From a virus, in the IMG/VR virus record IMGVR_UViG_3300016665_000824, positions 64,001 through 128,000 of that record: 64,000 nt of DNA; one strand, given 5' to 3'. Made by a program: the position numbers and the translations under genes. Positions within the stretch are counted from its first letter, which is position 1. Each line of letters opens with the position of its first letter. The notes below the pieces were generated by a model. It was not told where the DNA came from. It worked only from the letters and a program-made list of their open reading frames with translations, and did no database searches. Shown here piece by piece: positions 7,499-64,000 of this stretch.

Positions 7499-7515
7499 AA
7501 ATACAAATAAAAACA

Positions 7516-7896
7516 ATGGAATTTACATATAAACTAATACAAAATCAACCAAACTCCATCATAAGACTTGAAGATGGAGCAATTATCCCAGAAGGGCATA
7601 ATGGTGATTGGCAACTTTACGAGGCATGGTTAGCTGAAGGAAATACGCCTGAAGCCGCTGATGCGCTGCCTATTGTAGTGCGGGAAATCGATGCTCGTAA
7701 ACTGCGATTAGCTTTGCTTCAATTAGGGCATCTATCTACCGTCACTAGCGCTATTTCTAGCCTTGGTGAGGCTGCAATCATTGATTGGGAATATGCCACA
7801 ATCATTCGCGAAGATTACCCTTTGGTACTGGCTTTGGCAAGCAATTTAAATTTGGATATTAAAGCAATATTTGATTTAGCGAATTCATTGGTGTAA
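7516..7896 (+). CDS. hypothetical protein (possible tail-fibre assembly/chaperone by position)
   Basis: 126 aa ORF directly downstream of fibre-like genes; positional inference only. Confidence 0.35.
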
Positions 7897-7898
7897 TT

Positions 7899-8444: not shown

Positions 8445-8510
8445 AACAAAAGCCCAACTCAAGCTATGGCAAGAATTGGGCGTAGGTTACGGACAGGGGT
8501 GGCTATGGGG

Positions 8511-8930
8511 TCAGGCCATTCCTACTTGATCTTGACCAGATAACGTAGCGATCGCCAACCACTCCGCTAGTCCATCGGCAAATCCTTTGTCACTGTATTC
8601 GTCAAGGCTGTAGATAGAGTCGATGCGATCACGCACCTCTTCTAGCGTCAAACCTTCTTTTTGCCATTGTTTTAGCTTTCGCCCAATCACTTGATTGAAC
8701 TTCTCGATTTGTGGCGCTAGATTTTCTCTCGCCAACTCAGAAATGCGATCGCGCAAATCATTCTCTTCGATTTCGGAGATCTCATCGTCAAACCGTTGCA
8801 GATATTCGGGATTTTCTTGAGCAATGCGAACGCGGAGTAGCTGTATCGCATCATCGAACAGGATGTCGATTTCGTTAGGTGCGATCGCGTCAGTCCTATA
8901 GCCAAGCTTTTCTAATACTTCGAGTTTCAT
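8511..8930 (-). CDS. hypothetical protein
   Basis: 139 aa ORF, 4-nt overlap with upstream gene. Confidence 0.4.
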   Translation of the reverse strand: MKLEVLEKLGYRTDAIAPNEIDILFDDAIQLLRVRIAQENPEYLQRFDDEISEIEENDLRDRISELARENLAPQIEKFNQVIGRKLKQWQKEGLTLEEVRDRIDSIYSLDEYSDKGFADGLAEWLAIATLSGQDQVGMA

Positions 8931-45160: not shown

Positions 45161-45386
45161 AGAAGATGCTGAAGAATGCTTAGCTAAAAATCTAAAGGTT
45201 GTAACGCGCTATGGGCTAGGCGAAATTATTTCGATCGCCAAGAAAAGCGACCCAGTACAATGGGCAGAGATAAAACAACTTGACCGCGATCGCCAGTTTG
45301 AAGTACCCAGATGTCTATACCTATCGAGCATCAGCAGATATACTGCTGTTTTGGTTGAGCAAAGTGAAGTAGAAAGTATTTTTTAA
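45153..45386 (+). CDS. hypothetical small protein (start at ATG 45153 after GGAGGG)
   Basis: Internal ATG of track ORF 44979..45386 with RBS. Confidence 0.35.
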   Translation: MTREDAEECLAKNLKVVTRYGLGEIISIAKKSDPVQWAEIKQLDRDRQFEVPRCLYLSSISRYTAVLVEQSEVESIF

Positions 45387-47011
45387 TATCCCGATCGCCA
45401 CACGATATCCATCAGAGTTTCCCTACCAGCGAAAGCAATAACACAAGCGTCACTACAATTAGGCGATCGCCCCAATCTACGAATAGTTTTAGAAGCCTTA
45501 TCCTCAATGCGTAACTTCGCGTTGGGGGTTTCTTCGTAGTAGACGTTACTAAAGTCCGTCATCAGATATTCTTCCTCCTCTAGTGGTGCGATCGCCGATA
45601 TATCGTCATTGCCATCGGCAGCAGCAAAGAATTCACGCAGTTTCCAATACCATTGAGCCTTCCAGTTCATATATAGCTGATCGAAGTCTTGGTTGGCATC
45701 TTCTTCTACCGCATCACCAAAGTTAGCTGCCCATACTTGCGCTCCCCATCCGCGATCGAGCAAGTAAGCTAATGTACCCGAACCAACACCCGTGGCATCT
45801 ATACCCACTTTACAGTTAGGATAGACGCGCAGATATTCTTCCTCAATGATTTGGGCAATACGAATAACGTCTTTGCGATCGCCTACACAGGGGATAACCC
45901 TCGCGATCTTAAGCACATTACCTTGAAACCCACAAATAGCATGGTCATCACTCATGGAGCCGACATCTACACCAAAACTCCAAGGTGTATTGACATTGAT
46001 AATTGTTTCCCACAGATCGGGATTGAGATCGTATCTTGCCCGTGCCGCAACAAAGTAGCTCTTGGGAAGTATAGACGCGCCACCCGATTCCGAGAACAAG
46101 CCCTCAATACGAGTCAGCCAGAAAGGTGAGTTTTCACCCTTCTTGATACGCATCCTTTCAATCCATGCGATCGAGATAGCACCCTTGATTACATCTCTGG
46201 GTAAGTCAGCATCCCATTCGGATTGAGGTTTGATTGGCTCGTCGCGAGAGTTGGGGTCATTAGGCGATCGCTTAATCTTTGCCTCGACCTCTGGTTTAAG
46301 TCGGTGCATCCCATCAAGATGCAGGTCGTAAGCCCATTCAACATTTGGGTGCTGCCATGCACTGCATCTGATATGGCTGAGGTTGCAAGCAGTATAGAAA
46401 GGGGAGTCACATCTGGTTGGGTTGCCAATACGAAGAATCTTATTTTGTTCCCCTGTAAGACAGCTTTCTAGGGAGGTATCTACGGCAGGACTGATACCAC
46501 AGGCTTCATCTTCAATAATAAGCATTCGTTCTGAGTGGATACCCTGCGCTGCCGAATCATTATGGTCACTACTGGAAAAGCCGTATGCCTCAACCCCTTC
46601 TTCGAGGAATACCCGCAGCTCATTTCTCTTGCCGCCGAGCTTCTTCTTGTGTTTGTCGTATAGACGACGGACAACGCCCCAAAGCAACTTAGTAACCTGT
46701 CGGTGAGTTGGTGCGGTAGAGATAACAAGCGATCGCACAGCAAATACCGCCCAGAGGACTAACCACCCACTCAAGTATGTCTTGCCTAAACCGTGGCAGG
46801 CGGCAACATTGGTAACACGCTTGTTCTTGACCGATTCAAGAATGGTGATCTGTTGTCCCGTGATAACAATATCGGGTTCAAGGTATCGAATAAATCCTTC
46901 GGGGTCGTCGGCAAATCGGGTTAAGTCTTCACCGATCGCCACATCCCCCTCATTACCTGATACCAGCTTAATCTGCGTATTACAGCTCGTCTTCAGTCTC
47001 GCAAAGCCCAC
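45383..47011 (-). CDS. terL: terminase large subunit
   Basis: Walker A-like ACHGLGKT, Walker B-like LIIEDEA; 542 aa. Confidence 0.75.
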   Translation of the reverse strand: MGFARLKTSCNTQIKLVSGNEGDVAIGEDLTRFADDPEGFIRYLEPDIVITGQQITILESVKNKRVTNVAACHGLGKTYLSGWLVLWAVFAVRSLVISTAPTHRQVTKLLWGVVRRLYDKHKKKLGGKRNELRVFLEEGVEAYGFSSSDHNDSAAQGIHSERMLIIEDEACGISPAVDTSLESCLTGEQNKILRIGNPTRCDSPFYTACNLSHIRCSAWQHPNVEWAYDLHLDGMHRLKPEVEAKIKRSPNDPNSRDEPIKPQSEWDADLPRDVIKGAISIAWIERMRIKKGENSPFWLTRIEGLFSESGGASILPKSYFVAARARYDLNPDLWETIINVNTPWSFGVDVGSMSDDHAICGFQGNVLKIARVIPCVGDRKDVIRIAQIIEEEYLRVYPNCKVGIDATGVGSGTLAYLLDRGWGAQVWAANFGDAVEEDANQDFDQLYMNWKAQWYWKLREFFAAADGNDDISAIAPLEEEEYLMTDFSNVYYEETPNAKLRIEDKASKTIRRLGRSPNCSDACVIAFAGRETLMDIVWRSGY

Positions 47012-48465: not shown

Positions 48466-48485
48466 ATGCTTTATAAAGGTAGGTT

Positions 48486-48580
48486 AAAACCCATCAGTTA
48501 AACCTTCAAGCACTGCCTTCAACAATATACGCGGCGCGTGTATCTCTGGCTTAGCTCTATTGATTTAACTGATGGGTTTT
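48486..48580. promoter_or_regulatory. perfect 17-bp inverted repeat (AAAACCCATCAGTTAAA / TTTAACTGATGGGTTTT) with 61-nt spacer
   Basis: Read directly: arms 48486-48502 and 48564-48580, inside a 657-bp ORF-free region upstream of the terminase operon. Confidence 0.5.
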
Positions 48581-49105
48581 GCAGAGAGTGGATTTTGCCT
48601 TTTTAGGAGCGCCAAGTAATTAGTTTTGGAAGAACAATTACTAACAAACTTTTATGCGATCGCACAACATGGCTTTTTCCTGATTCCTACATAGGCTTTT
48701 ACCCTGTAATGCCATGAATTTATAGGTTCAGCGATCGCATGGTAGACAGATTACTCTGTCCGCACTTTCTCTGGACAAGAAAGTAGTGGGATAATCAACC
48801 GCCAGCACCATATCTGGCATTCGTCACCACGAGGGCTTAAGGTGTGTGTTGCCACAGTTGATTGTTTGCTAGCGTACTGGAAAGGCGATCACTATTGCCT
48901 CATGACCACCTAAAACTCGCTCATATATTAAGGTTAGGCTTCGAGCAAGGCTTAATCTCAGGTCTAGCACCCCCTGTTCGACACCTTACTGCCGCAGGGA
49001 CGGTGCGATCGCCTACCAACTAGGGAAATTTATTCAATAACCACACGGAGAGACCCCGACGTTCATTGATAGTGCGATCGCAACATAATTCTAACACAGT
49101 CTTGT

Positions 49106-49123
49106 GGTGGTTCAGATCGGAAT
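49106..49123. repeat. 18-mer GGTGGTTCAGATCGGAAT (copy 3), overlapping stop codon of minus-strand gene 49123..49605
   Basis: One mismatch relative to copies 1 and 2. Confidence 0.55.
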
Positions 49124-49605
49124 TAGTTGGCTGCTCGACCACCACATCTAGTACCATCTGCGGCAGTCTGCCATGAGTATTGACAGTTTCCAGAGTATCC
49201 AGAAGTGTTTGAGGGTGGATTGTCTAGCAAATAAACAGGCTTTTGCTGACAAGTTAAAGAAGCACTATCAAAGGTTGAATCCGTCGGGCAGGGGGCAGTA
49301 CAAAGAGTCCCATCCCCACGTCTGTCGATAGTTCCTTTTGGGCAAGCACTACCAACCAGAAACCCTTGACTTGGAGAAGTTTTTTGTGATGAGGTTGGGA
49401 TGCTTCTTGATTCGCTAGTCGTATTGATAGAAGTCCCATTGTTGCCCGTACATAGATGGTCCAGATTTACCAGAACCCCTCGGCTGTTGACCATATAACA
49501 CAAGGGCAAGTTGCTGGGTAGCCCCTCAAAAGGATCTTTAGCGATCGCTAGTTGAGGCAAGGCAAAAATAGTAACAAGAGACAACAAGACACCGATCTTT
49601 TTCAA
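49123..49605 (-). CDS. secreted Cys-rich protein
   Basis: N-terminal signal-peptide-like MKKIGVLLSLVTIFALPQLAIA; 10 Cys in the mature part. Confidence 0.5.
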   Translation of the reverse strand: MKKIGVLLSLVTIFALPQLAIAKDPFEGLPSNLPLCYMVNSRGVLVNLDHLCTGNNGTSINTTSESRSIPTSSQKTSPSQGFLVGSACPKGTIDRRGDGTLCTAPCPTDSTFDSASLTCQQKPVYLLDNPPSNTSGYSGNCQYSWQTAADGTRCGGRAAN

Positions 49606-49671
49606 GATTTCTTCCTCTTTTTAGAATATATAAATGATTATTTCACTAAAGCCCGATCATTGGGTAGGCAT

Positions 49672-50331
49672 CTAGCCTCCGTAATAGTCAGCACATAAAT
49701 ACTCAAGCGATCGCCCTATTTTAACCGAGTAATTCTCACCCTCGATACTAGCTTCCTGCATCACCTTTTCTAAAGCCGCTCTCACGATCTCCACAGCGTC
49801 CGTAGGAACACTAAAGATCATTCGAGTGAATTCATCACTGGCTTCGGGAGGAGCTTTCTCCTTGGCGGCTTCGAGCATCTTGGCGAGACTTTCCTTTGTG
49901 TGAGGTGTGGGGAGATAAGCGCGATCGCCTAATTTCTTTTCAACCCTTTTGAGGGAAACACTTAGCTTAACTGGATCTTCTTCGCCGTGAGCCTTGGATG
50001 CGGAGGTGTATAACTCGTATTCTTCATCCTGTAAGCCCGTAATGACATTGCAATAGTAGTATTCCAGCCCCTCTAAGTATCTATGTTCGCCATTTACAAT
50101 CTCGTACTCACCCTCAATATGCGGATGGGGGCGAACAACAAGCGGCTCAATTTGGGTAAACATCTTTAAGCTCTCCCCCAAAGCCTTTTGGTGGTGAGGC
50201 TGCAAAACGTTTGAGTTCCAAGAGTTCGGATGTATCTTTGAGGTCTCAATCTTTACATTCCACTCTTTCTGGATTCGTTGCGCGATCGGTAGCGAATAAT
50301 CAATCTTCTTCGTCATCTTCATCCTCTTCAA
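49672..50331 (-). CDS. ParB-like nuclease domain protein
   Basis: EIVNGEHRY resembles the ParB N-terminal GxxR-type motif; weak. Confidence 0.35.
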   Translation of the reverse strand: MKRMKMTKKIDYSLPIAQRIQKEWNVKIETSKIHPNSWNSNVLQPHHQKALGESLKMFTQIEPLVVRPHPHIEGEYEIVNGEHRYLEGLEYYYCNVITGLQDEEYELYTSASKAHGEEDPVKLSVSLKRVEKKLGDRAYLPTPHTKESLAKMLEAAKEKAPPEASDEFTRMIFSVPTDAVEIVRAALEKVMQEASIEGENYSVKIGRSLEYLCADYYGG

Positions 50332-51481
50332 ATTTCTTGGGCATAATTACCGATGTCAGGAATGATTCCTGCTCTACTCCGTCGCAAGGGCTAACCATTA
50401 CTAGCGGTCGAGTTCCCTCGTATACCTCCAGCTTAATGTGTTTTGATTTTGTGGTATCCAAAATATGCTGCAAGTATTTTATGTTGAACCGAGCAGCAAA
50501 TCCTGACACGCCAACATCGCATGGCAGTGATTCTTCCACCCTGCCAACACCCGCAACTTCAGCAACAAGTATCAACTCATCACCCTTGATAGTGATGTCA
50601 ACCAAGTAGCTAGTAATCTCACCCTCACACAACGAAGCAACGGTCTTCAAGCTGGTAATCAGCTCTTTGCGATCGCACTTTACCGACCCAGACATCTCTT
50701 TGAGCCGTACGTTAACGAGACTCGATCGTACTGGTGGAAATGGTTGAGCAATTAGTGGTGAGATGATGGTTAGCGCGTGGCTATAAAACCAAATATGGTT
50801 ACTGGCTAAACGCACTTCAGTCTCTGCTTGGGTGATGTGCAGAACCTCTTTGAGCGATCGCGCAGGTATTGTCGCATTAATCAGCTTTTCACTCAATTCG
50901 GGGTGGACAAATCTGATACAAGATCCTCGACAGCCATCGGTTGCTGTGAAGGATAGGAATCTCGTCGGGTCATCTTCACCATCAATGATTTCGTCGTACT
51001 CCGCTAGGTTCACACCCGTAAGTGCAGGCTTAGTTTCGTCGTTAGATACGAGCTTTAAGGTAGCCACAATGCCGTCCCGCAGTATATCTGTGGCGATCGC
51101 AAAGGTGTCAGCATCAGTAATCTTGGGGGTGCTTGGGTATGAGTCGGCGCTGATAGTTGGTAGTGAGATTTTACTCTTACCACACTTAATAGTGGCAATA
51201 CCTTCGGATACCTTGATTAAAACCTCTTCACCGTTGAGGGACTTTACCGCGTCGGAGAATCGCTTGGCATTGAGCGCGATCGCGCCCTCTTCTTTGATAC
51301 TATCGGAATCCTCTCTGCGGATTAGCCAAAGCTTTAGGTCGGTAGCTGTGATGGTGAAGAGATCGTTCTTCGCTTCGAGTCGAAAGTTTGTTAAGATTTC
51401 CTGCGGTGGAGACTTAGAAACAGCTTCCTTTACTGCGTCCACCATCGATTTCAACGTTTTGAGAGGGAGTGTTAGTTGCAT
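50300..51481 (-). CDS. dnaN: DNA polymerase III beta subunit-like sliding clamp
   Basis: Matches to DnaN pattern: LFTITATDL, FTATDGCRG, FNIKYLQHILD, MPKKF near C-terminus; acidic tail. Confidence 0.55.
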   Translation of the reverse strand: MQLTLPLKTLKSMVDAVKEAVSKSPPQEILTNFRLEAKNDLFTITATDLKLWLIRREDSDSIKEEGAIALNAKRFSDAVKSLNGEEVLIKVSEGIATIKCGKSKISLPTISADSYPSTPKITDADTFAIATDILRDGIVATLKLVSNDETKPALTGVNLAEYDEIIDGEDDPTRFLSFTATDGCRGSCIRFVHPELSEKLINATIPARSLKEVLHITQAETEVRLASNHIWFYSHALTIISPLIAQPFPPVRSSLVNVRLKEMSGSVKCDRKELITSLKTVASLCEGEITSYLVDITIKGDELILVAEVAGVGRVEESLPCDVGVSGFAARFNIKYLQHILDTTKSKHIKLEVYEGTRPLVMVSPCDGVEQESFLTSVIMPKKFEEDEDDEED

Positions 51482-51506
51482 TTAGTATTATTACCACAAG
51501 ATTGCG

Positions 51507-51740
51507 TTACAAAAAGTTATCAATAACATTCTTCGCTCTGGCGATCGCCGCTCCAGAAGTTGTTTCTCCGCAGTCATGGGTATTGTCGCTGAGAACCCCC
51601 TTAAAGGCGCGATCACATACAAACCAGAAGTAGTGCGGAGGGTATTGAGGTGAAGCCTGCTCCGTAATAACAATGCCTTTCTTTTTGTATTTTTCGACGG
51701 CAACAACGTGGACGGATTTAAACAGGTCTGGCGGTTTCAT
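51507..51740 (-). CDS. hypothetical small protein
   Basis: 77 aa ORF. Confidence 0.3.
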   Translation of the reverse strand: MKPPDLFKSVHVVAVEKYKKKGIVITEQASPQYPPHYFWFVCDRAFKGVLSDNTHDCGETTSGAAIARAKNVIDNFL

Positions 51741-51775
51741 TTTCTGCTCCTAAACTCTTTGGATGATTGTTATCG

Positions 51776-52279
51776 CTATTCAAAAACCGAGTGGCAAACG
51801 AGACATACATAAGCAGCGATCGCGTAGACATACTTATACTCCGATGGGAGGAATGTCGGTTGCAATAGGGCATATCCAAAGACTCCTGTGAAAACAAAGG
51901 CGATCGCTGCCACCATCTTTTTACCGATCAGTTTTGCCCATAGGTTGGCAAGACCTAAAACCAGCAACCAGAAAAGTAGTGACGGACGGAGCAACAGCCA
52001 GTTAACGAAGAATCTAACCGCATGGATGTCATGCCTGCGATGGAATAATCTAGAAACAGGGTGGACTATGCCGTGGTGAACGAAGTTACTTAAGGGTATG
52101 CAGTCTCGAAGTAGTAACTCGCGAGAAAGATTAGCGTAGGTCATGTGATGGGTCTGATTAGATTTTAGGAACGGGAATACAGCACACCTGTCGAACATAA
52201 TGCTACGAAATTTTCGAGACTTCTGCTGCCAATCTTTTGAATGAATGTAGGCTTGATAATCTACTCTTACTTTTGTCAT
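51776..52279 (-). CDS. integral membrane protein
   Basis: 167 aa with several hydrophobic segments (LLLRPSLLFWLLVLGLANLWA, AIAFVFTGVFGYALL). Confidence 0.45.
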   Translation of the reverse strand: MTKVRVDYQAYIHSKDWQQKSRKFRSIMFDRCAVFPFLKSNQTHHMTYANLSRELLLRDCIPLSNFVHHGIVHPVSRLFHRRHDIHAVRFFVNWLLLRPSLLFWLLVLGLANLWAKLIGKKMVAAIAFVFTGVFGYALLQPTFLPSEYKYVYAIAAYVCLVCHSVFE

Positions 52280-53424
52280 TGTTTTTTGAATCTCTTATAA
52301 ACAGTTTCTGTATACTCAGCAATACTGGGGTAGGAGTTTCCACCATAGGTTTGGGGACGAGTGTTGTTAAATAGAGCTGGATCTCCCGAATACCAAATCG
52401 AAGCAGCCTTCCGAATTTGTTCTTCTTCGGATTTCGATGTTGGGGCGACCTGTTTTAGAGCTTCCTCTAACTTGCAGTCAATGATCTTGACCTGCTTAGT
52501 CTTGTCTTTAAGGAATTCCTGTTCGGTTAATGGAGAGCCGAGGCATTGAGTACTCCACGACTTGATGTTTTCAGGCATTATCTGCCCATAACCCAATGCG
52601 CCGCTATCTGCATTGATAGCTTTATGGTCGTGGTTTGATTCTTGACCAGCGATCGCATTACGAAGTCTCTCAACGACAGGTTTGGCTGGAGCCTTGGTCG
52701 GCTCTGTCCCCTGCAATAACCACGAGACAATACCTCTTGGAGGATTAATCAACTCGCCCTTGAACTTAACTCCGACGTGCAGGTGTGGACCGCTAGATGC
52801 TCCCGAATTTCCAGATTTGGCAATCATCGATCCGACGGGATGCCTACCTGAATAGCACTCGTTTAAGTGGAATAACTGGATTTCATATTCGGGTAGCAGA
52901 GGGCTGGTTACATAAGCTGCCACCCCTTCTGGCGGATTGAATGGGCTGAACGGGCAGGCAACATCTACAAAACCGTCATGAAATGCACTTTTAGAGCCTA
53001 ATTTCCCGATCGCGTAAACAGGAGTTCCAACTGGAGTTGCGATGTCAACGCCTTTGTGGTCTTCGCTACATGATGGGCATGGTTTTTCTCTCTTACCAAA
53101 GCCAGAAGTGACTTCATAGCCAAGTATTTTGTCCCCAACTTTAAGTGGCTCGTTAAAGTCCTCATCGGGCTTGAAGTTAACTTCAAGAGATGTCTTTGCG
53201 ACTGTTGGTAGTCCCAGAAACCTGTAAGCCCACTTAACCGAATCGTTTGCTGGCTTGTAGAGGATCGCGATCGCAATTAACGCGATCGCGAATAATTTAC
53301 CGTTTCTCCAGCGAGTCTCCTTTGCTTCGAGCTTCTCGTGGTAAACGATCTGAAACTCTTTGCTGGTTTCCTCCAGTTTCGGTTTTGGTGGTAGAAGGGG
53401 TCTCTTCTGGTGGCTTAAAACCAT
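52276..53424 (-). CDS. bifunctional peptidoglycan hydrolase: M23 peptidase + lytic transglycosylase-like domain, membrane anchored
   Basis: M23 motifs HKGVD and HLHVG; later QESNHD...GALGYGQIMPEN resembles SLT-type motif; N-terminal hydrophobic anchor. Confidence 0.6.
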   Translation of the reverse strand: MVLSHQKRPLLPPKPKLEETSKEFQIVYHEKLEAKETRWRNGKLFAIALIAIAILYKPANDSVKWAYRFLGLPTVAKTSLEVNFKPDEDFNEPLKVGDKILGYEVTSGFGKREKPCPSCSEDHKGVDIATPVGTPVYAIGKLGSKSAFHDGFVDVACPFSPFNPPEGVAAYVTSPLLPEYEIQLFHLNECYSGRHPVGSMIAKSGNSGASSGPHLHVGVKFKGELINPPRGIVSWLLQGTEPTKAPAKPVVERLRNAIAGQESNHDHKAINADSGALGYGQIMPENIKSWSTQCLGSPLTEQEFLKDKTKQVKIIDCKLEEALKQVAPTSKSEEEQIRKAASIWYSGDPALFNNTRPQTYGGNSYPSIAEYTETVYKRFKKQ

Positions 53425-53788
53425 ATCTAATAGGCTCGTCTAGACCTTGATCGAGTTGCACGTAAAGTTGTTTGGTTGAGTTGGTAAGGAATTTAAGATA
53501 AGTAACCGATCCTTTCTTGCCTTCACAAAAATAGTTGGGGAATTCTTTGAGAACCTGTCTTGTTGTTTTACCTTCAAGCTTGAGGGCTTGACTCATTGGT
53601 ACAGGTATTGTCTGAGATGAAGTGGTAAGGCAATCTTCGGTGTTGCCATCGAGTACTTTTGCTAGCTGTGTCTCCGCGATCGGGCGGAGATCTACGAAGG
53701 CGAGATAGCCTTCTTCTGGAAGATTTAAAGAAATAGCGATAAGCGCACCTAGCAGCAATGCGTTTATCGCTATGTCACGTTTTTTCAT
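53297..53788 (-). CDS. membrane-anchored hypothetical protein (start at internal ATG 53788)
   Basis: MKKRDIAINALLLGALIAISL signal-anchor-like N-terminus. Confidence 0.4.
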   Translation of the reverse strand: MKKRDIAINALLLGALIAISLNLPEEGYLAFVDLRPIAETQLAKVLDGNTEDCLTTSSQTIPVPMSQALKLEGKTTRQVLKEFPNYFCEGKKGSVTYLKFLTNSTKQLYVQLDQGLDEPIRYGFKPPEETPSTTKTETGGNQQRVSDRLPREARSKGDSLEKR

Positions 53789-53792
53789 TGGT

Positions 53793-54311
53793 TTAGCGAC
53801 GCTCAGCCCTTGCTTGACGAGGAGAAAATGCCACATCGTCATTTTTTTTAGTGTTCTCGGCAACGATGTCGTTAACCTTTTTTTCTGCGATCACACCAGT
53901 AAACTCTTTAACCGCAGAAACTCCGTTAAAAGCCCATGCGTTAGGCATTCCACCAGCTTCCGAGGTAGTGAGATAACGAGGCGTGGGATTGAAAAAACTA
54001 AGAAGAGCCATAATGCCCATAGGAATAACCACGATCGCTGTGCATCCGTATAGAAGCGCCCATCGTTTGTTGCTCAAAACAGAGTCTATAAATGCTCTAG
54101 CGGAAACGATGATTGCCTGATGCTGATCTTTGTCGATCAAGTAAACTCTTTTACCTGATTCAAGTCCATCAACAAGACCATCACCGTTGATATCGCCACT
54201 AAAAGCCGTCTTACCTGCTTTCCCGTAAACAACAATATCGCATTCTGCTCGTTTCATTGTCATTGGTTTTCCTCCTCCACCGCCCTGTGGCGGCATATTT
54301 CCTGCGTTCAT
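53793..54311 (-). CDS. membrane protein
   Basis: 172 aa; Gly-rich N-terminus, hydrophobic segment LLYGCTAIVVIPMGIMALLSF. Confidence 0.4.
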   Translation of the reverse strand: MNAGNMPPQGGGGGKPMTMKRAECDIVVYGKAGKTAFSGDINGDGLVDGLESGKRVYLIDKDQHQAIIVSARAFIDSVLSNKRWALLYGCTAIVVIPMGIMALLSFFNPTPRYLTTSEAGGMPNAWAFNGVSAVKEFTGVIAEKKVNDIVAENTKKNDDVAFSPRQARAERR

Positions 54312-54314
54312 GTT

Positions 54315-55658
54315 TTAAGCCGTTCTTGGAAACAGCACTAGGTTGTCTTTACCGATCGCGAGGATTCTATCAAGAGCTTCCTCCACCGATTCTTCAGTGA
54401 CTTCCGACTTCTCGGAATCAAACCTGAAGCCGTCCAGATGCTTGAGATCTGGCATTAATGCAATCTTGGGTATACCCATTGTGGTTAGCAATACTGGGCG
54501 ATCGCCTTGCTTCTTAGCCATTGCGATCGCATCTCCAAGCATCCCCGCAAGAGATAATCTTTGCTGCTTATTAGGGAATAGTTTTGCATCGGCAAGAGCT
54601 GCTTCAATGGGCCTATAGCCAACATCATTCTTTTCACCCATGCGACCTAGCGCAAGAACTGAGAAGCAGCCTCGCACTGGGTCGCTGAAGCCAATTTGAG
54701 TACAAAGGTGAGTTTGCGCGACAAGAATAAGGCGAACACACATCTCTCTTCCCATAGCAACTATCTGATTGAGCATTCCAAAAAATTCTGCCTCTCTTTT
54801 TGAGGAAGCAATCATGTCTTGTAGTACCCACCACTCGTCAAGGATTAGATATTGAGGGGCAAAGACTGGGCGCTTCCCGCCTTCTCGTAATATCTTTTGT
54901 ACTGCGCGAATCCTATTCTTCATGATCTTAAAGGCGCGGCTAATCTGCTCGGAAGCAGCATCAAGCTGCTCGTCTTGCGTGTCTTGATCTAAGTAGGTGA
55001 CGATGCCATCTTCGCTTTGAAGCCCTAGCCAGTCCGTTGTCTTTGGATCGACAATACCGAATTTAGAAGCGGGGTTGATCTTCTTTATTCGCTGGATAAG
55101 CGCCTTTAGCAAGGTAGACTTACCCGCGCCAGACTTGGTGGCAATCAGTACATGAAGATCTGTGTGAGCCACCTCGCCGATAATATCTCCAGTAAACACT
55201 CCTTTCGAGTACTCGGTAACAGCTATAGGCTCTTCGTCCGTATAAGGCTCGTCATCAAACTGAGGAGGTCTAACTGCTGCTACTGGTTGAGGGCGAGGCG
55301 CGGATGTGCGCTGAACATTGGTATTGCGAATAATTACTGGGGCAGCAACTTGCTGTTGAGCGTGAGGCAGAGCTACTGGAGTCTCCTCGCCTTTGGGTTG
55401 TTCATCTTCAAGGTTGCTTGCCAAGCCGACACCTGACGCGATCGCCATGCCAAGAAAAGCCAAAGTAGCAATAGGATTATTGTAGGAACTGGGCTGAAGT
55501 ACAGCCTGTTGCCCATGATCGTTAACACTTGAGTCTACCCTCCTGTATTCGTCTGCGGACTTAAATAGGACATCTCTCGGTAATACCGACCATCCAGCAG
55601 CTCCTAGCCATGCTGCACAGCTAATGCCTAATAGTAGGTTTACTGTTGACTTCTTCAT
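54315..55658 (-). CDS. FtsK/SpoIIIE-like membrane-anchored P-loop ATPase
   Basis: Walker A IATKSGAGKST, Walker B YLILDEW; N-terminal hydrophobic segment and Pro/Gln-rich linker. Confidence 0.5.
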   Translation of the reverse strand: MKKSTVNLLLGISCAAWLGAAGWSVLPRDVLFKSADEYRRVDSSVNDHGQQAVLQPSSYNNPIATLAFLGMAIASGVGLASNLEDEQPKGEETPVALPHAQQQVAAPVIIRNTNVQRTSAPRPQPVAAVRPPQFDDEPYTDEEPIAVTEYSKGVFTGDIIGEVAHTDLHVLIATKSGAGKSTLLKALIQRIKKINPASKFGIVDPKTTDWLGLQSEDGIVTYLDQDTQDEQLDAASEQISRAFKIMKNRIRAVQKILREGGKRPVFAPQYLILDEWWVLQDMIASSKREAEFFGMLNQIVAMGREMCVRLILVAQTHLCTQIGFSDPVRGCFSVLALGRMGEKNDVGYRPIEAALADAKLFPNKQQRLSLAGMLGDAIAMAKKQGDRPVLLTTMGIPKIALMPDLKHLDGFRFDSEKSEVTEESVEEALDRILAIGKDNLVLFPRTA

Positions 55659-56389
55659 AGCTTCTTGTTCAGTTTTCCAGCTTGGGCATTGGGGCTGGAC
55701 TCGATTAGGTCTAGCCTTATTCTTTGAAGCTCGTCAAGATTGCTTCTTACTACTTCTGGAGCGGTTTCAACCAGTTCAACTCTTCCCTCGCGAGCCGCCT
55801 CAATAGCTAAAAGATTTGCGTTTGCGAGAATCATCTCCTTGGCATCTCTAGCGCGAGAAGCAGCTTGCTGGCGAGCTAGCCAAGCGTCTCGTTTTCTGTT
55901 TAGATCGCAGTCAATCCCTTTCTCGGATCGAAGGCAGTCTTTATCGTTTTTATCCTTGACCGCTTTGTTTGCGGCTTGGAGATAATCATTCGCTAGAATT
56001 TTTATTGCAGCGTCCGTGTCTTTGTCTAAGGCTGCTTTAGCACCAGCTTTCGCCTCGCTAAAACTAATCTTTTTGCCTTCTAAAGATTTTTGGAGCAACT
56101 CCTCGGATCTTTGGTCAAAGGATTTAGGAACGAAAGGATCTATTCTTTCTGCGGGTTTGGGTTGGCTGTTGACCACTGCCGCGATCGCAATAACAGTAGA
56201 GACAACGCCTAGCCCGATATATATTAAGTTTTTTGGAGTAGCCCAAGCGAGGTTCGACTGAGCGGGTGCTGTAGCTGCGGGTGTCGTGGGAGCAAGTCGG
56301 CTGGGCTGTCTTTCTGTGATTCGAGGGGTAGCGATTGGAGTATCCGCTACTTCCTCAAACTCATCTTGCATTGCGGCAGTGTCAAGCAT
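55655..56389 (-). CDS. membrane protein with coiled-coil region
   Basis: 244 aa; hydrophobic segment LIYIGLGVVSTVIAIAAVV then Ala/Lys/Asp-rich helical region. Confidence 0.4.
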   Translation of the reverse strand: MLDTAAMQDEFEEVADTPIATPRITERQPSRLAPTTPAATAPAQSNLAWATPKNLIYIGLGVVSTVIAIAAVVNSQPKPAERIDPFVPKSFDQRSEELLQKSLEGKKISFSEAKAGAKAALDKDTDAAIKILANDYLQAANKAVKDKNDKDCLRSEKGIDCDLNRKRDAWLARQQAASRARDAKEMILANANLLAIEAAREGRVELVETAPEVVRSNLDELQRIRLDLIESSPNAQAGKLNKKL

Positions 56390-56391
56390 AT

Positions 56392-56754
56392 CTACCTCCC
56401 CGCCGAAGGAAGAAATTGACTGATTGGGCGGTTCGTAGGAAGAAAAGGATTGTCTTCCGAGTTGTTCACGCCAGTAAAAAAATCACCGAGAACTTCTCCG
56501 CTATAGGCGATCGCGTCAGGGAGTTTTTGAATTACGTTGAGCGCAATCTGTTCTCCAACCGCAAAGGCGATCGTTCCTGCGATTTCATTGCCGACTTGAG
56601 TTCCGACTGTGCCAACCTGAGTGCGAACCTGCATTTGTACCTGTTCTGGGGTTAGAAGGGCGGACTGGGGAGCAGTAGCCCTAACATCTTCTACAGGAGT
56701 TACATCTAGCAAGGCTTGCTCTTCTTCGGTTAAATGAGCGTTATCTTTGGACAT
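56392..56754 (-). CDS. hypothetical protein
   Basis: 120 aa ORF. Confidence 0.35.
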   Translation of the reverse strand: MSKDNAHLTEEEQALLDVTPVEDVRATAPQSALLTPEQVQMQVRTQVGTVGTQVGNEIAGTIAFAVGEQIALNVIQKLPDAIAYSGEVLGDFFTGVNNSEDNPFLPTNRPISQFLPSAGR

Positions 56755-57016
56755 CTTCGTATGTACTCTCTAAAAAATCTGAACATTTTTGGTAATTAGA
56801 CAGGGCAGCTTTTTTTGTAAAACCTCTTGCTTTGAGGCTGGTCTCTTTTCCGATTGCGGCTATCTGTCTTGCAGTTTTAAGACCGCAAGGAGATTTGATT
56901 CTTACTCCTCTCTTCTTTAAAAGGCGGTATCCCCAATCCTTAAAAGTCCCAAAAGGTATGCCAATCTGCTCTGCCCACTCGTGAAGGTGGCGTTCTACTT
57001 GGCTTGTTTGCGTCAT
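56741..57016 (-). CDS. hypothetical protein
   Basis: 91 aa ORF. Confidence 0.35.
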   Translation of the reverse strand: MTQTSQVERHLHEWAEQIGIPFGTFKDWGYRLLKKRGVRIKSPCGLKTARQIAAIGKETSLKARGFTKKAALSNYQKCSDFLESTYEDVQR

Positions 57017-57204
57017 AGGTCTTCAAAGTTTTCTGGAACAAGGTCGAACGAATCAAAGTTTGCGAGCTGAGATTCTACCTGTTCTAGTTCCAAGCTAAGA
57101 TTCTGGGCATCTTCTCCTTGACTCTGTAACTCAGAGATAGACCTCTTAAGTTGATACTTTCTATTAAATAATGATCTAATCAACTCGTCTTGGGCGTTTT
57201 GCAT
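57013..57204 (-). CDS. hypothetical small coiled-coil protein
   Basis: 63 aa ORF, first gene of minus-strand operon. Confidence 0.3.
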   Translation of the reverse strand: MQNAQDELIRSLFNRKYQLKRSISELQSQGEDAQNLSLELEQVESQLANFDSFDLVPENFEDL

Positions 57205-57384
57205 AAGCTTTATGGATAAATATTCGTCTGATTAGACTGTCCGATCACCTGTCCAATGGACATCTGATTAGACTGTCCGATCAGAATAAAATTAGTGTAC
57301 TTAAGTTATTCGCACTTGTCAACAAAATAGTAGAAACTCGTTTTGAATGCGCTAATATTGGGCAATTCAACCTATTAAGACCTT

Positions 57385-57648
57385 ATGAGCGTCACTCAGA
57401 CTGCGCGTTTCCCCGATGATTTACATGCTGCATTGAAAGAACACTGCGATCGCACAGGAAATAGCGCCAACGCAGAAATAATCCTCGCAGTGCGAAAACA
57501 TCTGGGTATGCCAACAGTCGAAGATCGTCTCGATAGTCTTGAAGAGGGATTGAGAAAATGTATTGATAGGTTGAATAGGCTAGAGGCTAGCGCGATCGCC
57601 ACTCAGCAATCTTCCGACACCGATATTCGGTCCAGTGCGGATGATTAG
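57385..57648 (+). CDS. ribbon-helix-helix (CopG/Arc-like) DNA-binding protein
   Basis: N-terminal RFPDDLHAALKEHCDRTG...AEIILAVRKHLG pattern typical of RHH proteins. Confidence 0.4.
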   Translation: MSVTQTARFPDDLHAALKEHCDRTGNSANAEIILAVRKHLGMPTVEDRLDSLEEGLRKCIDRLNRLEASAIATQQSSDTDIRSSADD

Positions 57649-57934
57649 TCGGCGTGTACCAATTTTCATATTTGTAAGTACCCTTTGACCTGTTGCAAGG
57701 CGTACAAGCTGGTACGGTATTTGCAAAGTCGTCGCTACCCGAATCATGGCGCGGAATGATATGGTCTAGTCCGTTTGCCTCGTTACCGCAGTAGGCACAT
57801 TTATAGTCAAACTCTTGGAACGTATAATCTCTAATCTTTTGCAAAACATCTTTTTTCCTAATGCAGTCAGATAGGGATATATAGAGCATATTCAATACCC
57901 ATGTTTTGACAATGCTGCCACAAAATTGAAACAA
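57587..57934 (-). CDS. HNH endonuclease
   Basis: CAYCG...DHIIP...N...CTPCNRSKG HNH motif. Confidence 0.65.
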   Translation of the reverse strand: MFQFCGSIVKTWVLNMLYISLSDCIRKKDVLQKIRDYTFQEFDYKCAYCGNEANGLDHIIPRHDSGSDDFANTVPACTPCNRSKGTYKYENWYTPTNHPHWTEYRCRKIAEWRSR

Positions 57935-58441: not shown

Positions 58442-58545
58442 ATGCACAAGAAATCCCGAAATCGTGTGCATGTTTATTCAATATACACAAGCAACCCGCC
58501 AAGCCTCTCTACGATGCTGAAACTGGCGGGTTGCTTGTGTTGTGA

Positions 58546-58929
58546 TTATACCTGAGTGGCGAAGTATTTAGAGGCGATCGCGATAAGCCTTAATTGTTCG
58601 CTGGGATAAATCCCTGAAGGTCCAACTGCCTCATATAGTCTCTTTAGCACCTCAGCTTTGCCGTACTCGGAAATCAGTAAAGCCCATCCAAGTACATGTA
58701 GCTGGAACAAAAGCTCTTTCTGGAGCCGTTCCTTATGAGCTGTACTCTTACCCTTAAACGTCGGATGTCGAACCTCTCGTACTCGCAGCTTGTTTTTCGG
58801 GAAGGAAATGTAGAGACTTGAGGTTAGGTATTCATCTATCAGAACGAGAAGTTCTTGGCGATCTTTTTGTAAGAGTTCTGCTTGCATAGACATACTCAAA
58901 AACCTTTGTATTTCTGCCAAGAAGTCCAA
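58546..58929 (-). CDS. hypothetical protein (last gene of 8-gene operon)
   Basis: 127 aa ORF. Confidence 0.4.
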   Translation of the reverse strand: MDFLAEIQRFLSMSMQAELLQKDRQELLVLIDEYLTSSLYISFPKNKLRVREVRHPTFKGKSTAHKERLQKELLFQLHVLGWALLISEYGKAEVLKRLYEAVGPSGIYPSEQLRLIAIASKYFATQV

Positions 58930-59486
58930 AGGTTTTTTACTTCAATACCCTTTTTCTTGGCATATTTCACACAGTTAGCCGTACCACCTCTCGACCCGTC
59001 CCATAGTGCGAGCATTCTGTTAGCCCGATCGCACATCCACTCATTCCTAATCTGCATCGCCGCAGCCGAGTATGGCACATCAGGGCAATGCACGGCGATC
59101 GCCTTGTCGCAGATATACTGCCATTGGTCTTGCTGCGACTGACTCCACTTAAATGAGTGGTTTAAGCAAGGTACTGCGGCGACGAGAGGTATTTCTAATT
59201 CGATCGCTGCTAATGCGATCGCGGTGTCCCATCCCAAAGCCATGCCAGAAATAACAATTACAGGTCTTTCTTGCATCAAGGCATTCTTAGCAAGGGTAGT
59301 AAGTCTGGGCAGGGTTAAGGATTCGTATTGACTCCACGTACTTTGCAGCTTCTGGGGGCGATGTCCTGTGCCAGCAACGACTAATTGCCCGTCGGTAAGA
59401 TCGAGTTTAATGTCGGAGGAGTCTGATTCGCTACCTATAGGAATATTAACTTGGAGCCAGTGATCGGTGATTGATATTGTTTTCAT
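58896..59486 (-). CDS. SLOG-fold protein, DUF1273/YpsA-like
   Basis: VVAGTGHRPQKL near N-terminus resembles the YpsA ITGYKP motif; Rossmann-like alternation. Confidence 0.4.
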   Translation of the reverse strand: MKTISITDHWLQVNIPIGSESDSSDIKLDLTDGQLVVAGTGHRPQKLQSTWSQYESLTLPRLTTLAKNALMQERPVIVISGMALGWDTAIALAAIELEIPLVAAVPCLNHSFKWSQSQQDQWQYICDKAIAVHCPDVPYSAAAMQIRNEWMCDRANRMLALWDGSRGGTANCVKYAKKKGIEVKNLWTSWQKYKGF

Positions 59487-63908: not shown

Positions 63909-64000
63909 ATTAATCCCGTCTAGCTCGACCTCCTCCTCGCATTGAGGGCAGATCCATCCCCGTTGAATGGTTGCATTGTCAGGTATTGAGGTGACTGGGG

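What the first reader, a model, noticed from the sequence alone, without database searches (positions are those of the whole stretch)
49123..57204. Membrane-associated module: FtsK-like ATPase, M23/transglycosylase hydrolase, membrane proteins, DnaN clamp, ParB-like nuclease, secreted Cys-rich protein
A contiguous minus-strand block combines an N-terminally anchored FtsK/SpoIIIE-type P-loop ATPase (Walker A GAGKST, Walker B LILDEW), a bifunctional membrane-anchored peptidoglycan hydrolase, at least four further membrane proteins, a sliding clamp with an acidic tail, a ParB-like nuclease and a signal-peptide Cys-rich protein. An FtsK-like translocase beside a cell-wall hydrolase is the hallmark of conjugative DNA-transfer machinery and is unusual next to a terminase operon; alternatives are a membrane-containing virion DNA-delivery apparatus or a phage-plasmid maintenance/transfer module.
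Basis: partly seen in the sequence, partly recalled or inferred. Interest (0 to 1): 0.6.

Follow-up and report, generated by a model that had tools for sequence, protein, structure and literature searches.

The report
Membrane DNA-pump-like operon in a cyanophage
A large uncultured cyanobacterial phage that also carries plasmid-partition genes has a conserved operon pairing a membrane-anchored FtsK-like motor ATPase with a cell-wall-cutting enzyme; it resembles a stripped-down conjugation module, but its function is unknown.

Summary
Window 49123-57204 (minus strand) is one tightly packed operon with a sigma70-like promoter and two perfect 21-nt operator-like repeats. It encodes:
- an FtsK-HerA-fold ATPase with an N-terminal two-helix membrane hairpin;
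- an M23 + SLT-like peptidoglycan hydrolase;
- four membrane or periplasmic proteins, one missed by some gene callers and overlapping the hydrolase start;
- DnaN, a ParB_N-like protein and a secreted Cys-rich protein.

The replicon is a tailed phage rich in the cyanobacterial HIP1 palindrome. A ParA/RHH partition pair lies just outside the window.

A six-gene core is conserved in more than 10 related contigs. The link between ATPase, a small membrane protein and a wall hydrolase recurs on cyanobacterial plasmids, with different hydrolase types. DnaN and ParB are not part of that core.

The closest annotated relatives of the ATPase are the Tn916 Orf21-type coupling protein and Nostoc plasmid proteins annotated as T4SS DNA-transfer proteins. 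No VirB4, relaxase or VirB6 was found, so this is neither a T4SS nor a T7SS.

Best reading (about 0.4): a minimal TraB/TcpA-like envelope DNA-translocation module. Rivals are a lysis cassette, protein export, replicon segregation and exclusion. It is a new variant of a known kind, of moderate to high interest.

The parts
57294..57322 (-). Best sigma70-like promoter of the region: -35 TTGACA, 17-nt spacer, -10 TACACT
   Evidence: (10 of 12 matches) and the sequence. This is a consensus match only. Promoter-like sites are not enriched in the region overall.
57227..57283 (-). Two perfect 21-nt direct repeats (TGATCGGACAGTCTAATCAGA on the coding strand), 36 nt apart. In its first copy the repeat, with the two bases before it, forms the inverted repeat TCTGAT-N11-ATCAGA. 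They lie between the -10 element and the first ATG, so they look like operators.
   Evidence: (family D3). The operator role is inferred.
57385..57648 (+). Divergent 87-aa gene that looks ribbon-helix-helix-like by eye; candidate regulator of the operon
   Evidence: sequence. A PDB sequence search gave nothing. Analogous upstream RHH_5 genes occur in L013 and L035. Weak.
57013..57204 (-). First gene of the operon: 63 aa, helical and acidic, not conserved in related loci
56741..57016 (-). 91-aa soluble basic protein, conserved in L003-L005 (39-53% identity)
   Evidence: No family match.
56392..56754 (-). 120-aa soluble protein, weakly conserved (27% identity) in L006, L007 and L039
55655..56389 (-). 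244-aa bitopic protein: acidic, Pro-rich N-tail, TM at residues 55-73, then a helical periplasmic domain with two invariant Cys. Always sits immediately upstream of the ATPase.
   Evidence: No family match.
54315..55658 (-). 447-aa membrane-anchored FtsK-HerA-fold ATPase: TM hairpin 8-26/63-81 with a conserved periplasmic loop (SYNNP motif), a Pro/Gln linker, a RecA-like core at 155-405, and an acidic C-tail ending DNLVLFPRTA
53793..54311 (-). 172-aa (or 156-aa) bitopic protein with an N-terminal DxDGDG-type motif and a TM at residues 86-104
53297..53788 (-). 163-aa signal-anchored periplasmic protein, missed by some gene callers. It has two invariant Cys and a small alpha/beta domain with weak BLIP/BamE-like fold matches. 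Its last ~125 nt overlap the hydrolase ORF.
52276..53424 (-). 382-aa peptidoglycan hydrolase: short N-terminal hydrophobic anchor or signal, an M23 endopeptidase domain (H123, D127, H214, H216), and a C-terminal SLT-like glycosidase domain (E262-S)
51776..52279 (-). 167-aa membrane protein with 2 TM segments. Accessory: present in L006 and L007, absent from L003-L005.
51507..51740 (-). 77-aa protein, weakly conserved
50300..51481 (-). DnaN sliding clamp with the acidic tail EEDEDDEED. Co-transcribed here, but not part of the conserved core.
49672..50331 (-). 219-aa ParB_N-domain protein. Not the partner of the contig's ParA, which has its own RHH partner.
49123..49605 (-). 160-aa secreted Cys-rich protein; last gene of the operon
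   Evidence: (C-terminal 27 aa match phrog_14503 and phrog_3117).

Best explanation
The operon most likely builds a minimal machine in the inner membrane and periplasm for moving a macromolecule, most probably the element's own DNA, through the thick cyanobacterial wall.

Proposed mechanism:
1. A repressor-controlled promoter switches the operon on.
2. The ATPase inserts through its N-terminal hairpin and, like FtsK, TraB and TcpA, probably assembles into a ring whose cytoplasmic motor pumps the substrate.
3. Its conserved periplasmic loop and acidic C-tail dock partner proteins.
4. The two bitopic proteins and the small periplasmic protein form the periplasmic part.
5. The anchored M23 + SLT enzyme cuts peptide cross-links and glycan strands locally to open the sacculus. 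The BLIP/BamE-like protein may position or restrain it.

The element looks like a phage-plasmid: a tailed phage with a ParA/RHH partition pair. The module would then give it a route of spread or exchange that does not need virions, comparable to single-protein TraB transfer in Streptomyces.

Shown: gene content, predicted topology, fold class, homology to coupling-protein-like plasmid ATPases, and conserved linkage to wall hydrolases.
Inferred: ring formation, the substrate, the direction of transport, the regulation and the biological role.
For: - Closest annotated relatives. Tn916 orf21-type coupling protein: hhalign 97.8%, E 1.2e-12. Nostoc punctiforme pNPUN04 'type IV secretory system conjugative DNA transfer family protein': 98.5%, E 2e-15. 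Leptolyngbya boryana plasmid p1: 99.3%, E 9e-21.
- Distribution. The family is found only on cyanobacterial contigs and mobile elements.
- Hydrolase linkage survives swaps of catalytic type. M23+SLT here; NlpC/P60 in L008; NlpC/P60 + beta-lactamase-like + M23 + SLT in L012 and the P0043 locus; M23/DUF2927 on L. boryana p1.
- The six-gene core is conserved in L003-L007, L009, L011, L039 and L040.
- The hydrolase and three partners carry their own anchors or signals. That fits a resident periplasmic complex.
- Plasmid character of the element: ParA + RHH on the same contig.
- Some relatives carry C-terminal extensions that look like HTH or winged-helix domains (judged by eye only).
Against: - No relaxase, VirB4, VirB6, VirB8 or outer-membrane component was found.
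- The window protein has no DNA-binding domain, only a short tail.
- No clt-like repeat array was found.
- Hosts include unicellular cyanobacteria with an outer membrane. How DNA would leave the cell is unexplained.
- The isolated Nodularia phage vB_NspS-kac65v161 carries a distant relative, gp140. Nothing examined indicates that this phage transfers DNA between cells.
- No other endolysin was seen in the 64 kb examined, so the hydrolase could simply be the lysin.
- The module diverges far faster than TerL: 34% against 97% identity in L004/L005. That pattern is also typical of lysis or exclusion genes.
Confidence: 0.4

Rival explanations
1. The operon is a lysis or egress cassette adapted to the thick cyanobacterial wall. 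The M23+SLT protein would be the endolysin, exported by its own signal. The small TM proteins would be holin- or antiholin-like. The 244-aa bitopic helical protein would be i-spanin-like. The ATPase would time or power the release or activation of the hydrolase.
For: - No other lysis-category family appears among the top 25 PHROG hits of the other 88 window ORFs. No other wall hydrolase appears among the listed Pfam hits.
- The operon sits next to the packaging genes.
- L008 shows the order bitopic protein, ATPase, 2-TM protein, 77-aa lipoprotein (LLAC lipobox by eye), NlpC/P60.
- The module is mosaic and fast-evolving, as lysis cassettes are.
- The PHROG hits of the hydrolase are mostly labelled 'endolysin'.
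Against: - The ATPase-hydrolase pair also occurs on bona fide plasmids with no phage genes annotated in the 30 kb examined (L. boryana p1) and on a ParA-bearing contig (L015).
- To my knowledge no lysis system uses an FtsK-like ATPase.
- No o-spanin lipoprotein was found in the window.
- No holin family matched.
- The Nodularia phage, which has a distant ATPase relative, carries a separate lysozyme far from it.
- Only 64 of 134 kb were inspected, so another lysin may exist.
Confidence: 0.2
2. The operon is a type-VII-like or holin-independent protein export system. The single-domain EssC-like ATPase would push a protein substrate across the inner membrane, for example one of the small upstream proteins or an effector. 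The hydrolase would clear the wall, as EssH does in Staphylococcus aureus.
For: - The best NCBIfam match is EssC, though weak (1e-4).
- L012 and the P0043 locus have a second gene directly downstream of the ATPase: a confirmed ATPase paralogue in L012, an untested 439-aa protein at P0043. This recalls the EccCa/EccCb split.
- Three small soluble proteins are encoded upstream.
Against: - There is one ATPase domain instead of three, and no FHA or DUF domain.
- No WXG100, EssB, EccB or EccD matches were found.
- T7SS is not known in cyanobacteria (my own knowledge).
Confidence: 0.1
3. The operon is a replicon maintenance device. A membrane- or septum-anchored FtsK-like pump would work with DnaN, the ParB-like protein and ParA to keep or segregate the large phage-plasmid genome in polyploid cyanobacterial cells. 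The hydrolases would act at the division septum.
For: - DnaN and the ParB_N protein lie in the same operon in the closest phages.
- ParA/RHH lies nearby.
- Relatives sit in plasmid backbones beside ParM and replication genes.
- Both a phage isolate and plasmids carry relatives.
- The conserved C-tail (acidic stretch + DNV(I/V)(P/L)(F/L)) loosely resembles a clamp-binding motif. This is by eye only.
Against: - DnaN and ParB are absent beside the module in L039, L040, L008, L012 and L. boryana p1. L039 and L040 nevertheless keep the C-tail.
- Nothing explains why dedicated wall hydrolases of changing type are always attached.
- No KOPS- or parS-like repeats were found.
Confidence: 0.15
4. The operon is a superinfection-exclusion or defence system. 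It would act at the envelope to block or expel incoming DNA of competing phages or plasmids.
For: - The module is hypervariable. Three divergent ATPase cores sit on the same N-terminal hairpin and C-tail. ATPase identity is 34% while TerL is 97%.
- There is a weak PADLOC match to mad8 (5.8e-10).
- An abiF RNA motif lies about 1.3 kb upstream.
Against: - No other PADLOC match was found in the operon.
- To my knowledge no known defence system pairs an FtsK-like ATPase with M23 or SLT hydrolases.
Confidence: 0.1

Closest known systems
TcpA (pCW3) / Orf21 (Tn916): FtsK-like type IV coupling proteins of Firmicutes conjugative elements
   Same: - Two N-terminal TM helices followed by one cytoplasmic FtsK-like ATPase domain.
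- Encoded near a peptidoglycan hydrolase and small membrane proteins on a mobile element.
   Different: - No VirB4 (TcpF/Orf16), VirB6 (TcpH/Orf15), VirB8-like protein or relaxase was found.
- The host is a diderm cyanobacterium.
- The carrier is a tailed phage.
- About 31% identity over the core only.
TraB of Streptomyces conjugative plasmids (single-protein dsDNA transfer), including the plasmid-phage pZL12 (from my own knowledge)
   Same: - A membrane-anchored FtsK-like motor on a mobile element with no relaxase or T4SS.
- Accompanied by small membrane proteins.
- Some family members carry a C-terminal extension after the motor.
- There is precedent for a replicon that is both phage and plasmid.
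   Different: - The window protein has no C-terminal winged helix.
- No clt-type 8-bp repeat array was found.
- The hydrolase is tightly linked here.
- No direct sequence comparison with TraB could be run.
EssC/EccC ATPases of type VII secretion
   Same: - Two TM helices precede the ATPase.
- A split or tandem ATPase arrangement occurs in distant loci.
   Different: - One ATPase domain instead of three.
- No T7SS partners or WXG100 substrates.
Uncharacterised ATPases of Nostoc, Leptolyngbya and other cyanobacterial plasmids, and gp140 of Nodularia phage vB_NspS-kac65v161
   Same: - Same family by profile comparison: 98.5% and 99.3% for the plasmid proteins. For gp140, 94.5% by hhalign and Foldseek E 7.8e-14.
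- N-terminal TM segments.
- L. boryana p1 keeps the ATPase, 185-aa protein and M23 hydrolase in one operon.
   Different: - Only 19-28% identity.
- The relatives are longer (442-712 aa), with linkers and, in pNPUN04 and gp140, C-terminal extensions.
- The Nostoc plasmids and the Nodularia phage show no adjacent hydrolase.
- None has been studied experimentally, as far as I could find.
Multidomain wall hydrolases of transport machines and virions: PrgK (LytM+SLT+CHAP), TcpG, CwlT, phi29 gp13 (from my own knowledge)
   Same: A membrane-anchored enzyme that combines an endopeptidase with a glycan-cleaving domain.
   Different: - The order here is M23 then SLT-like.
- The SLT domain scores below the Pfam cutoff in this protein.
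- An overlapping upstream gene encodes a small periplasmic protein.

Membership tests
FtsK-HerA superfamily P-loop ATPase | Walker A and Walker B motifs in a RecA-like core | tested here: met
   GAGKST at residues 177-182 and YLILDEW at 270-276. G179, K180, D274 and G303 are invariant across 25 diverse relatives.
FtsK-HerA superfamily P-loop ATPase | Fold similarity to solved members | tested here: met
   [not shown]
Pfam FtsK_SpoIIIE (PF01580) | Score at or above the gathering threshold of 24 bits | tested here: inconclusive
   The window protein scores 14.5 bits, E 0.024. Relatives P0037, P0038 and P0040 score 24.9-28.9 bits. Many homologues carry precomputed PF01580.
TcpA/Orf21-type T4 coupling protein within a conjugative T4SS | Two N-terminal TM helices plus a cytoplasmic FtsK-like domain, with homology to Orf21 | tested here: met
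   (hhalign 97.8%, E 1.2e-12).
TcpA/Orf21-type T4 coupling protein within a conjugative T4SS | Co-encoded VirB4-type ATPase, VirB6/VirB8-like proteins and a relaxase | tested here: not met
   None appeared among the listed Pfam and PHROG hits (top 25 families each) of the other 88 window ORFs, among 74 ORFs of distant loci, or by tblastn against Tn916 genes. Only 64 of the contig's 134 kb could be examined.
TraB-type single-protein dsDNA transfer (Actinomycetes) | C-terminal winged-helix DNA-recognition domain | tested here: not met
   The window protein ends in a roughly 40-residue low-confidence tail with one helix. The extensions in relatives are HTH-like by eye only; a PDB sequence search found nothing.
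TraB-type single-protein dsDNA transfer (Actinomycetes) | A cis-acting clt locus made of short repeats | tested here: inconclusive
   Only two 21-nt repeats were found, at the promoter. No 8-bp repeat array was detected, but the recognition motif is unknown.
Type VII secretion EssC/EccC | Three tandem FtsK-like ATPase domains plus T7SS partners and WXG100 substrates | tested here: not met
   A single domain. No T7SS families were found in the operon.
Canonical phage lysis cassette (holin, endolysin, spanin) | An endolysin with recognised holin and spanin partners, confined to phages | tested here: inconclusive
   A hydrolase is present. Small TM proteins are present but match no holin or spanin family. 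No lipoprotein o-spanin was found in the window. The module also occurs on plasmids.
Peptidase M23 (LytM-type metalloendopeptidase) | Pfam score above the cutoff, plus HxxxD and HxH zinc ligands | tested here: met
   36.9 bits against a cutoff of 28.7. HKGVD (H123, D127) and HLH (H214, H216) align to TagE and other M23 structures.
SLT lytic transglycosylase | Pfam score above the cutoff, plus the catalytic Glu-Ser motif | tested here: inconclusive
   20.2 bits against a cutoff of 21.3. QES at residues 261-263 by eye. Seven homologues carry precomputed PF01464. The domain is about 36% identical to 'glycosylase / minor tail' proteins of Streptomyces phages. No PDB sequence hit.
DnaN sliding clamp | Three beta-clamp domains | tested here: met
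   PF00712 79.7 bits, PF02767 57.8 bits and PF02768 38.6 bits, all above their cutoffs. phrog_947 E 6.6e-54.
ParB/Spo0J partition protein | ParB_N score above the cutoff, plus an HTH and a dimerisation domain, with a cognate ParA | tested here: not met
   ParB_N scores 22.7 bits against a cutoff of 26.3, and only residues 41-85 match. The weak NCBIfam matches also cover mainly this N-terminal segment. The contig's ParA is paired with an 83-aa RHH protein instead.
Phage-plasmid | Tailed-phage structural and packaging genes plus plasmid partition genes on one replicon | tested here: met
   Portal, Mu-F-like, tail completion, tail fibre and TerL. ParA + RHH on the same contig. Extrachromosomal maintenance itself cannot be tested here.

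The most novel reading that the evidence does not exclude
A tailed cyanobacterial phage-plasmid may carry a TraB-like DNA pump that needs neither a relaxase nor a T4SS. Working with its own wall-cutting enzyme, the pump would move the element's double-stranded genome directly between neighbouring cells of a colony or filament. That would be a second, virion-free infection route, and the first FtsK-type conjugation system outside Gram-positive bacteria. A sub-hypothesis is that the conserved acidic C-tail, ending DNV(I/V)(P/L)(F/L), docks the pump onto a sliding clamp loaded on the DNA.
Probability: 0.2. Interest if true: 0.85.

Novelty: new variant of a known kind. Interest (0 to 1): 0.6.

Why it matters
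If the module moves DNA, it would show three things. Phage-plasmids of bloom-forming cyanobacteria could spread without virions. FtsK-type (TraB/TcpA-like) transfer would exist in a diderm phylum where conjugation is almost unstudied. A compact six-gene cassette would become available for cyanobacterial genetics.

If it is instead a lysis or hydrolase-control device, it would be the first lysis system driven by an FtsK-like ATPase.

Either way, this defines an uncharacterised ATPase family specific to cyanobacteria. A profile search found 1513 cluster representatives with E <= 1e-3, though these also include generic FtsK-like proteins. The family is shared by plasmids and large phages. Its motor core is exchanged between three very divergent versions, while the membrane hairpin and C-tail stay fixed.

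Tried and rejected
- Near-identity DNA searches of the block against GenBank phages and PLSDB plasmids found nothing.
- The first genome scan with close-relative patterns found nothing.
- PADLOC gave only a weak mad8 match. I therefore did not file the operon as a known defence system.
- Packaging-ATPase reading rejected. A separate TerL/TerS pair is present. phrog_2666 (TerL) matches at only 2e-4. Packaging ATPases of large eukaryotic viruses are poorer Foldseek hits than the Nodularia protein.
- PRD1-like membrane virion rejected. Portal, Mu-F-like and tail genes are present.
- tblastn with the module proteins, including the o55655 bitopic protein, against the Tn916 segment in the IPP61 record found only the ATPase match.
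- Homology of the 244-aa bitopic protein to Nodularia phage gp130 and to L012_265 is not supported by hhalign (probability below 1%). This is despite a shared C-x-R...C motif and a BLAST E of 1e-3.
- PDB sequence searches found nothing for the SLT-like domain, the RHH-like regulator, the C-terminal extension of pNPUN04 or the P0034 core variant.
- L031 and L013 gave uninformative contexts. L035 ended right after the ATPase.
- The AFDB fold library was unavailable.
- Literature searches found no study of this module.

Full report
**What the window is.** The 64-kb window is part of a 134,398-bp metagenomic contig (ENA ERZ27292652 k141_20893). It encodes tailed-phage and replication functions:
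- portal (9553-11208), a Mu-F-like head protein, a tail-completion protein and a tail fibre;
- TerL (45383-47011) and a likely TerS;
- DnaG primase, DnaB helicase and SSB;
- Dam and Dcm methylases;
- ThyX, dCTP deaminase, MazG and RusA.

It has no near-identical relative among GenBank phages or PLSDB plasmids. TerL is below 30% identical to any isolate. The cyanobacterial HIP1 palindrome GCGATCGC occurs 185 times, against 1.0 expected. All genome hits of the ATPase family are cyanobacterial. The host is therefore a cyanobacterium. About 2.5 kb beyond the window's right end, the same contig carries a ParA ATPase with an 83-aa RHH partner. No integrase was seen among the listed Pfam hits of the window. 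A phage-plasmid lifestyle is plausible.

**Checking the observation.**
- *Hydrolase (52276-53424).* It is a solid M23 peptidase: 36.9 bits, with HKGVD and HLH motifs aligned to solved M23 enzymes. Its C-terminal SLT-like domain is just sub-threshold here (20.2 against 21.3 bits). Seven close homologues are annotated with SLT, and the domain is about 36% identical to 'glycosylase' tail proteins of Streptomyces phages.
- *Other genes.* DnaN is unambiguous. The 'ParB-like nuclease' has only a sub-threshold ParB_N segment. Four further proteins have predicted TM segments.

**Refinements to the observation.**
1. The 370-bp 'gap' left by some gene callers holds a real gene, 53297-53788. Its product is a 163-aa signal-anchored periplasmic protein with two invariant cysteines, 56-82% identical in 13 homologues.
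2. Its last ~125 nt overlap the hydrolase ORF. Both frames stay open in five divergent loci. Third-position variation in the overlap favours the hydrolase frame.
3. The genes from 57204 to 49123 overlap or are separated by 66 nt or less, so they form one operon.
4. The best sigma70-like match of the region lies just upstream: TTGACA, 17 nt, TACACT, at 57322-57294. Two perfect 21-nt repeats follow at 57227-57283. The first copy, with the two bases before it, forms an inverted repeat (TCTGAT-N11-ATCAGA). A small divergent gene (57385-57648) looks RHH-like by eye only; a PDB sequence search found nothing.

**Conservation.** The order [~120 aa] [~240-aa bitopic] [ATPase] [~155-aa bitopic] [~160-aa periplasmic] [M23 hydrolase] recurs in L003-L007, L009, L011 and L019. 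It also recurs in the more distant L039 and L040, which were found through the hydrolase. In L039 and L040, DnaN and ParB are not adjacent. They are therefore neighbours in the closest phages, not core components.

The module evolves much faster than its surroundings. In L004/L005, TerL is 97% identical to the window, while the ATPase is 34%, the bitopic proteins 35-49%, and the C-terminal domain of the hydrolase is replaced.

Three very divergent ATPase cores exist: the window type, the P0034/L039 type and the L040 type. All are still homologous by profile comparison. All sit on the same N-terminal hairpin, with its periplasmic SYNNP loop, and keep the same acidic C-tail ending DNV(I/V)(P/L)(F/L). 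These two elements are the likely docking points for conserved partners.

**Wider family.** A profile search of 1.8 billion representatives found 1513 proteins at E <= 1e-3 and 240 at E <= 1e-10. Most are single-domain proteins of 350-650 aa. The contexts of distant members repeat the link to cell-wall hydrolases of changing catalytic type:
- NlpC/P60 in L008.
- NlpC/P60 + beta-lactamase-like + M23 + SLT in L012 and on a 251-kb contig. In L012 the gene directly downstream of the ATPase is a second ATPase paralogue.
- M23/DUF2927 in the same operon on the 411-kb plasmid p1 of Leptolyngbya boryana, where hhalign to the ATPase family gives 99.3%.
- A GH19-like protein, by eye only, on a ParA-bearing Crocosphaera contig.

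Seventeen Nostoc plasmids carry 470-607-aa relatives. RefSeq labels several of them 'type IV secretory system conjugative DNA transfer family protein'. They sit in backbones with ParM and a DUF5906 replication protein, and no VirB4 is annotated nearby. These plasmids are typed mobilizable or non-mobilizable.

The only hits in GenBank phage records are to a Tn916 orf21-type FtsK-like coupling protein, lying among genes annotated as Tn916/Tn5251 conjugative-transposon genes in a Streptococcus phage record (hhalign 97.8%). The best match in the viral structure library is gp140 of the isolated 146.7-kb Nodularia phage vB_NspS-kac65v161 (Foldseek E 7.8e-14; hhalign 94.5%). It has N-terminal TM segments and a C-terminal extension, and that phage has a separate lysozyme elsewhere. 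The ATPase family is thus shared by cyanobacterial plasmids and large cyanophages.

**What it is not.**
- *Not a T4SS.* No VirB4, VirB6, VirB8 or relaxase appeared among the listed Pfam and PHROG hits (the top 25 families of each search) for 88 other window ORFs or 74 ORFs of distant loci. Only the ATPase resembles any Tn916 gene.
- *Not a T7SS.* There is one ATPase domain and no partner families.
- *Not a packaging ATPase.* TerL and TerS are separate.
- *Not a membrane-containing virion.* The structural genes are HK97-type tailed-phage genes.
- *Not a known defence system.* PADLOC gives only a weak mad8 match.

**Most likely mechanism (confidence about 0.4).** This would be a minimal machine in the inner membrane and periplasm, analogous to TraB or TcpA.
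1. After derepression, the ATPase forms a membrane-anchored motor.
2. The bitopic and periplasmic proteins build the periplasmic part.
4. The substrate is most likely the element's own DNA.

The DNA reading rests on three points: the closest annotated relatives are coupling-protein-like; the family lives on plasmids and phage-plasmids; and some relatives carry HTH-like C-terminal extensions (by eye). Gene content, topology predictions, fold class, homologies and synteny are shown. Oligomerisation, substrate, direction of transport, regulation and biological role are inferred.

**Rivals.**
- *Lysis cassette with an embedded ATPase (0.2).* No other lysin was seen in the 64 kb, the module is mosaic, and L008 has a spanin-like layout. 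It is weakened by the module's presence on plasmids and by the lack of any precedent.
- *Replicon segregation or anchoring with DnaN, ParB and ParA (0.15).* It is weakened because DnaN and ParB are not core, and the hydrolases are left unexplained.
- *T7SS-like protein export (0.1).*
- *Exclusion or defence (0.1).* This is suggested by the hypervariability.

**Verdict.** The module is an uncharacterised variant, specific to cyanobacteria, of the known theme 'FtsK-like translocase plus dedicated wall hydrolase', and here it is carried by a tailed phage-plasmid. Interest is 0.6.

Noticed in passing
window 1-64000; gap at 5558-8547: The cyanobacterial HIP1 palindrome GCGATCGC occurs 185 times, against about 1 expected. 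None occurs between 5558 and 8547, which overlaps the window's lowest-GC stretch (0.41 at 6001-8000). That segment may be recently acquired. HIP1 copies inside TM-coding segments encode Ala-Ile-Ala, for example at 53267-53289.
   Followed up: partly
window 53300-53424: The periplasmic-protein gene and the hydrolase gene overlap by about 125 nt in different frames. Both frames stay open in five loci of about 70-75% nucleotide identity. Third-position variation favours the hydrolase frame. This may be genuine dual coding or translational coupling.
   Followed up: partly
L004/L005 10001-11152, L039 8091-9191 and L040 7578-8684, compared with window 54315-55658: The ATPase core exists in three very divergent versions. 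The N-terminal membrane hairpin (SYNNP loop) and the acidic C-tail ending DNV(I/V)(P/L)(F/L) are retained in all. In L004/L005 the flanking TerL is 97% identical to the window. The tail loosely resembles a beta-clamp-binding motif; this was not tested.
   Followed up: partly
L034 13046-13922 (same contig, about 2.5 kb beyond window position 64000): A ParA (CbiA/VirC1-type, 210 aa) and an 83-aa RHH partner are followed by about 1.2 kb without called genes. This looks like a type Ib partition locus, suggesting a plasmid prophage state.
   Followed up: partly
window 58495-58531 (+): An Rfam abiF RNA motif scores 46.9 bits, above the gathering score of 37. It coincides with a perfect 17-bp inverted repeat at 58485-58540, between convergent genes. 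It may simply be a terminator hairpin.
   Followed up: no
window 48466-49122: About 650 bp have no convincing ORF, between the operon's last gene and the small genes upstream of TerS. The stretch contains a perfect 17-nt inverted repeat (48486-48502 / 48564-48580, 61-nt loop) and several HIP1 sites. It could hold a pac/cos site or an RNA. There was no Rfam hit.
   Followed up: no
L012 11624-12415; P0043 locus (251-kb contig): Distant members have a second gene directly after the membrane-anchored ATPase: in L012 a soluble ATPase paralogue, at the P0043 locus an untested 439-aa protein. A run of up to four wall hydrolases follows: NlpC/P60, beta-lactamase-like, M23 and SLT.
   Followed up: partly
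L044 37825-39963 (Nodularia phage vB_NspS-kac65v161 gp140, MK605243.1): An isolated 146.7-kb cyanophage encodes a 712-aa distant relative of the ATPase. It has N-terminal TM segments and a C-terminal HTH-like extension. Upstream lie a 3-TM protein and a coiled-coil protein that resemble the pNPUN04 neighbours by eye. It offers an experimentally tractable entry point.
   Followed up: partly
window 49123-49605: The last 27 residues of the secreted Cys-rich protein (GYSGNCQYSWQTAADGTRCGGRAAN) match two PHROG families, phrog_14503 'membrane associated protein' at 1.5e-7 and phrog_3117. This is a short conserved Cys motif of unknown role.
   Followed up: no
window 58896-59486 and 57587-57934: A DprA/SLOG-like protein (Pfam DNA_processg_A, 1.3e-6) and an HNH endonuclease sit just upstream of the operon and are conserved in related loci.
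   Followed up: no
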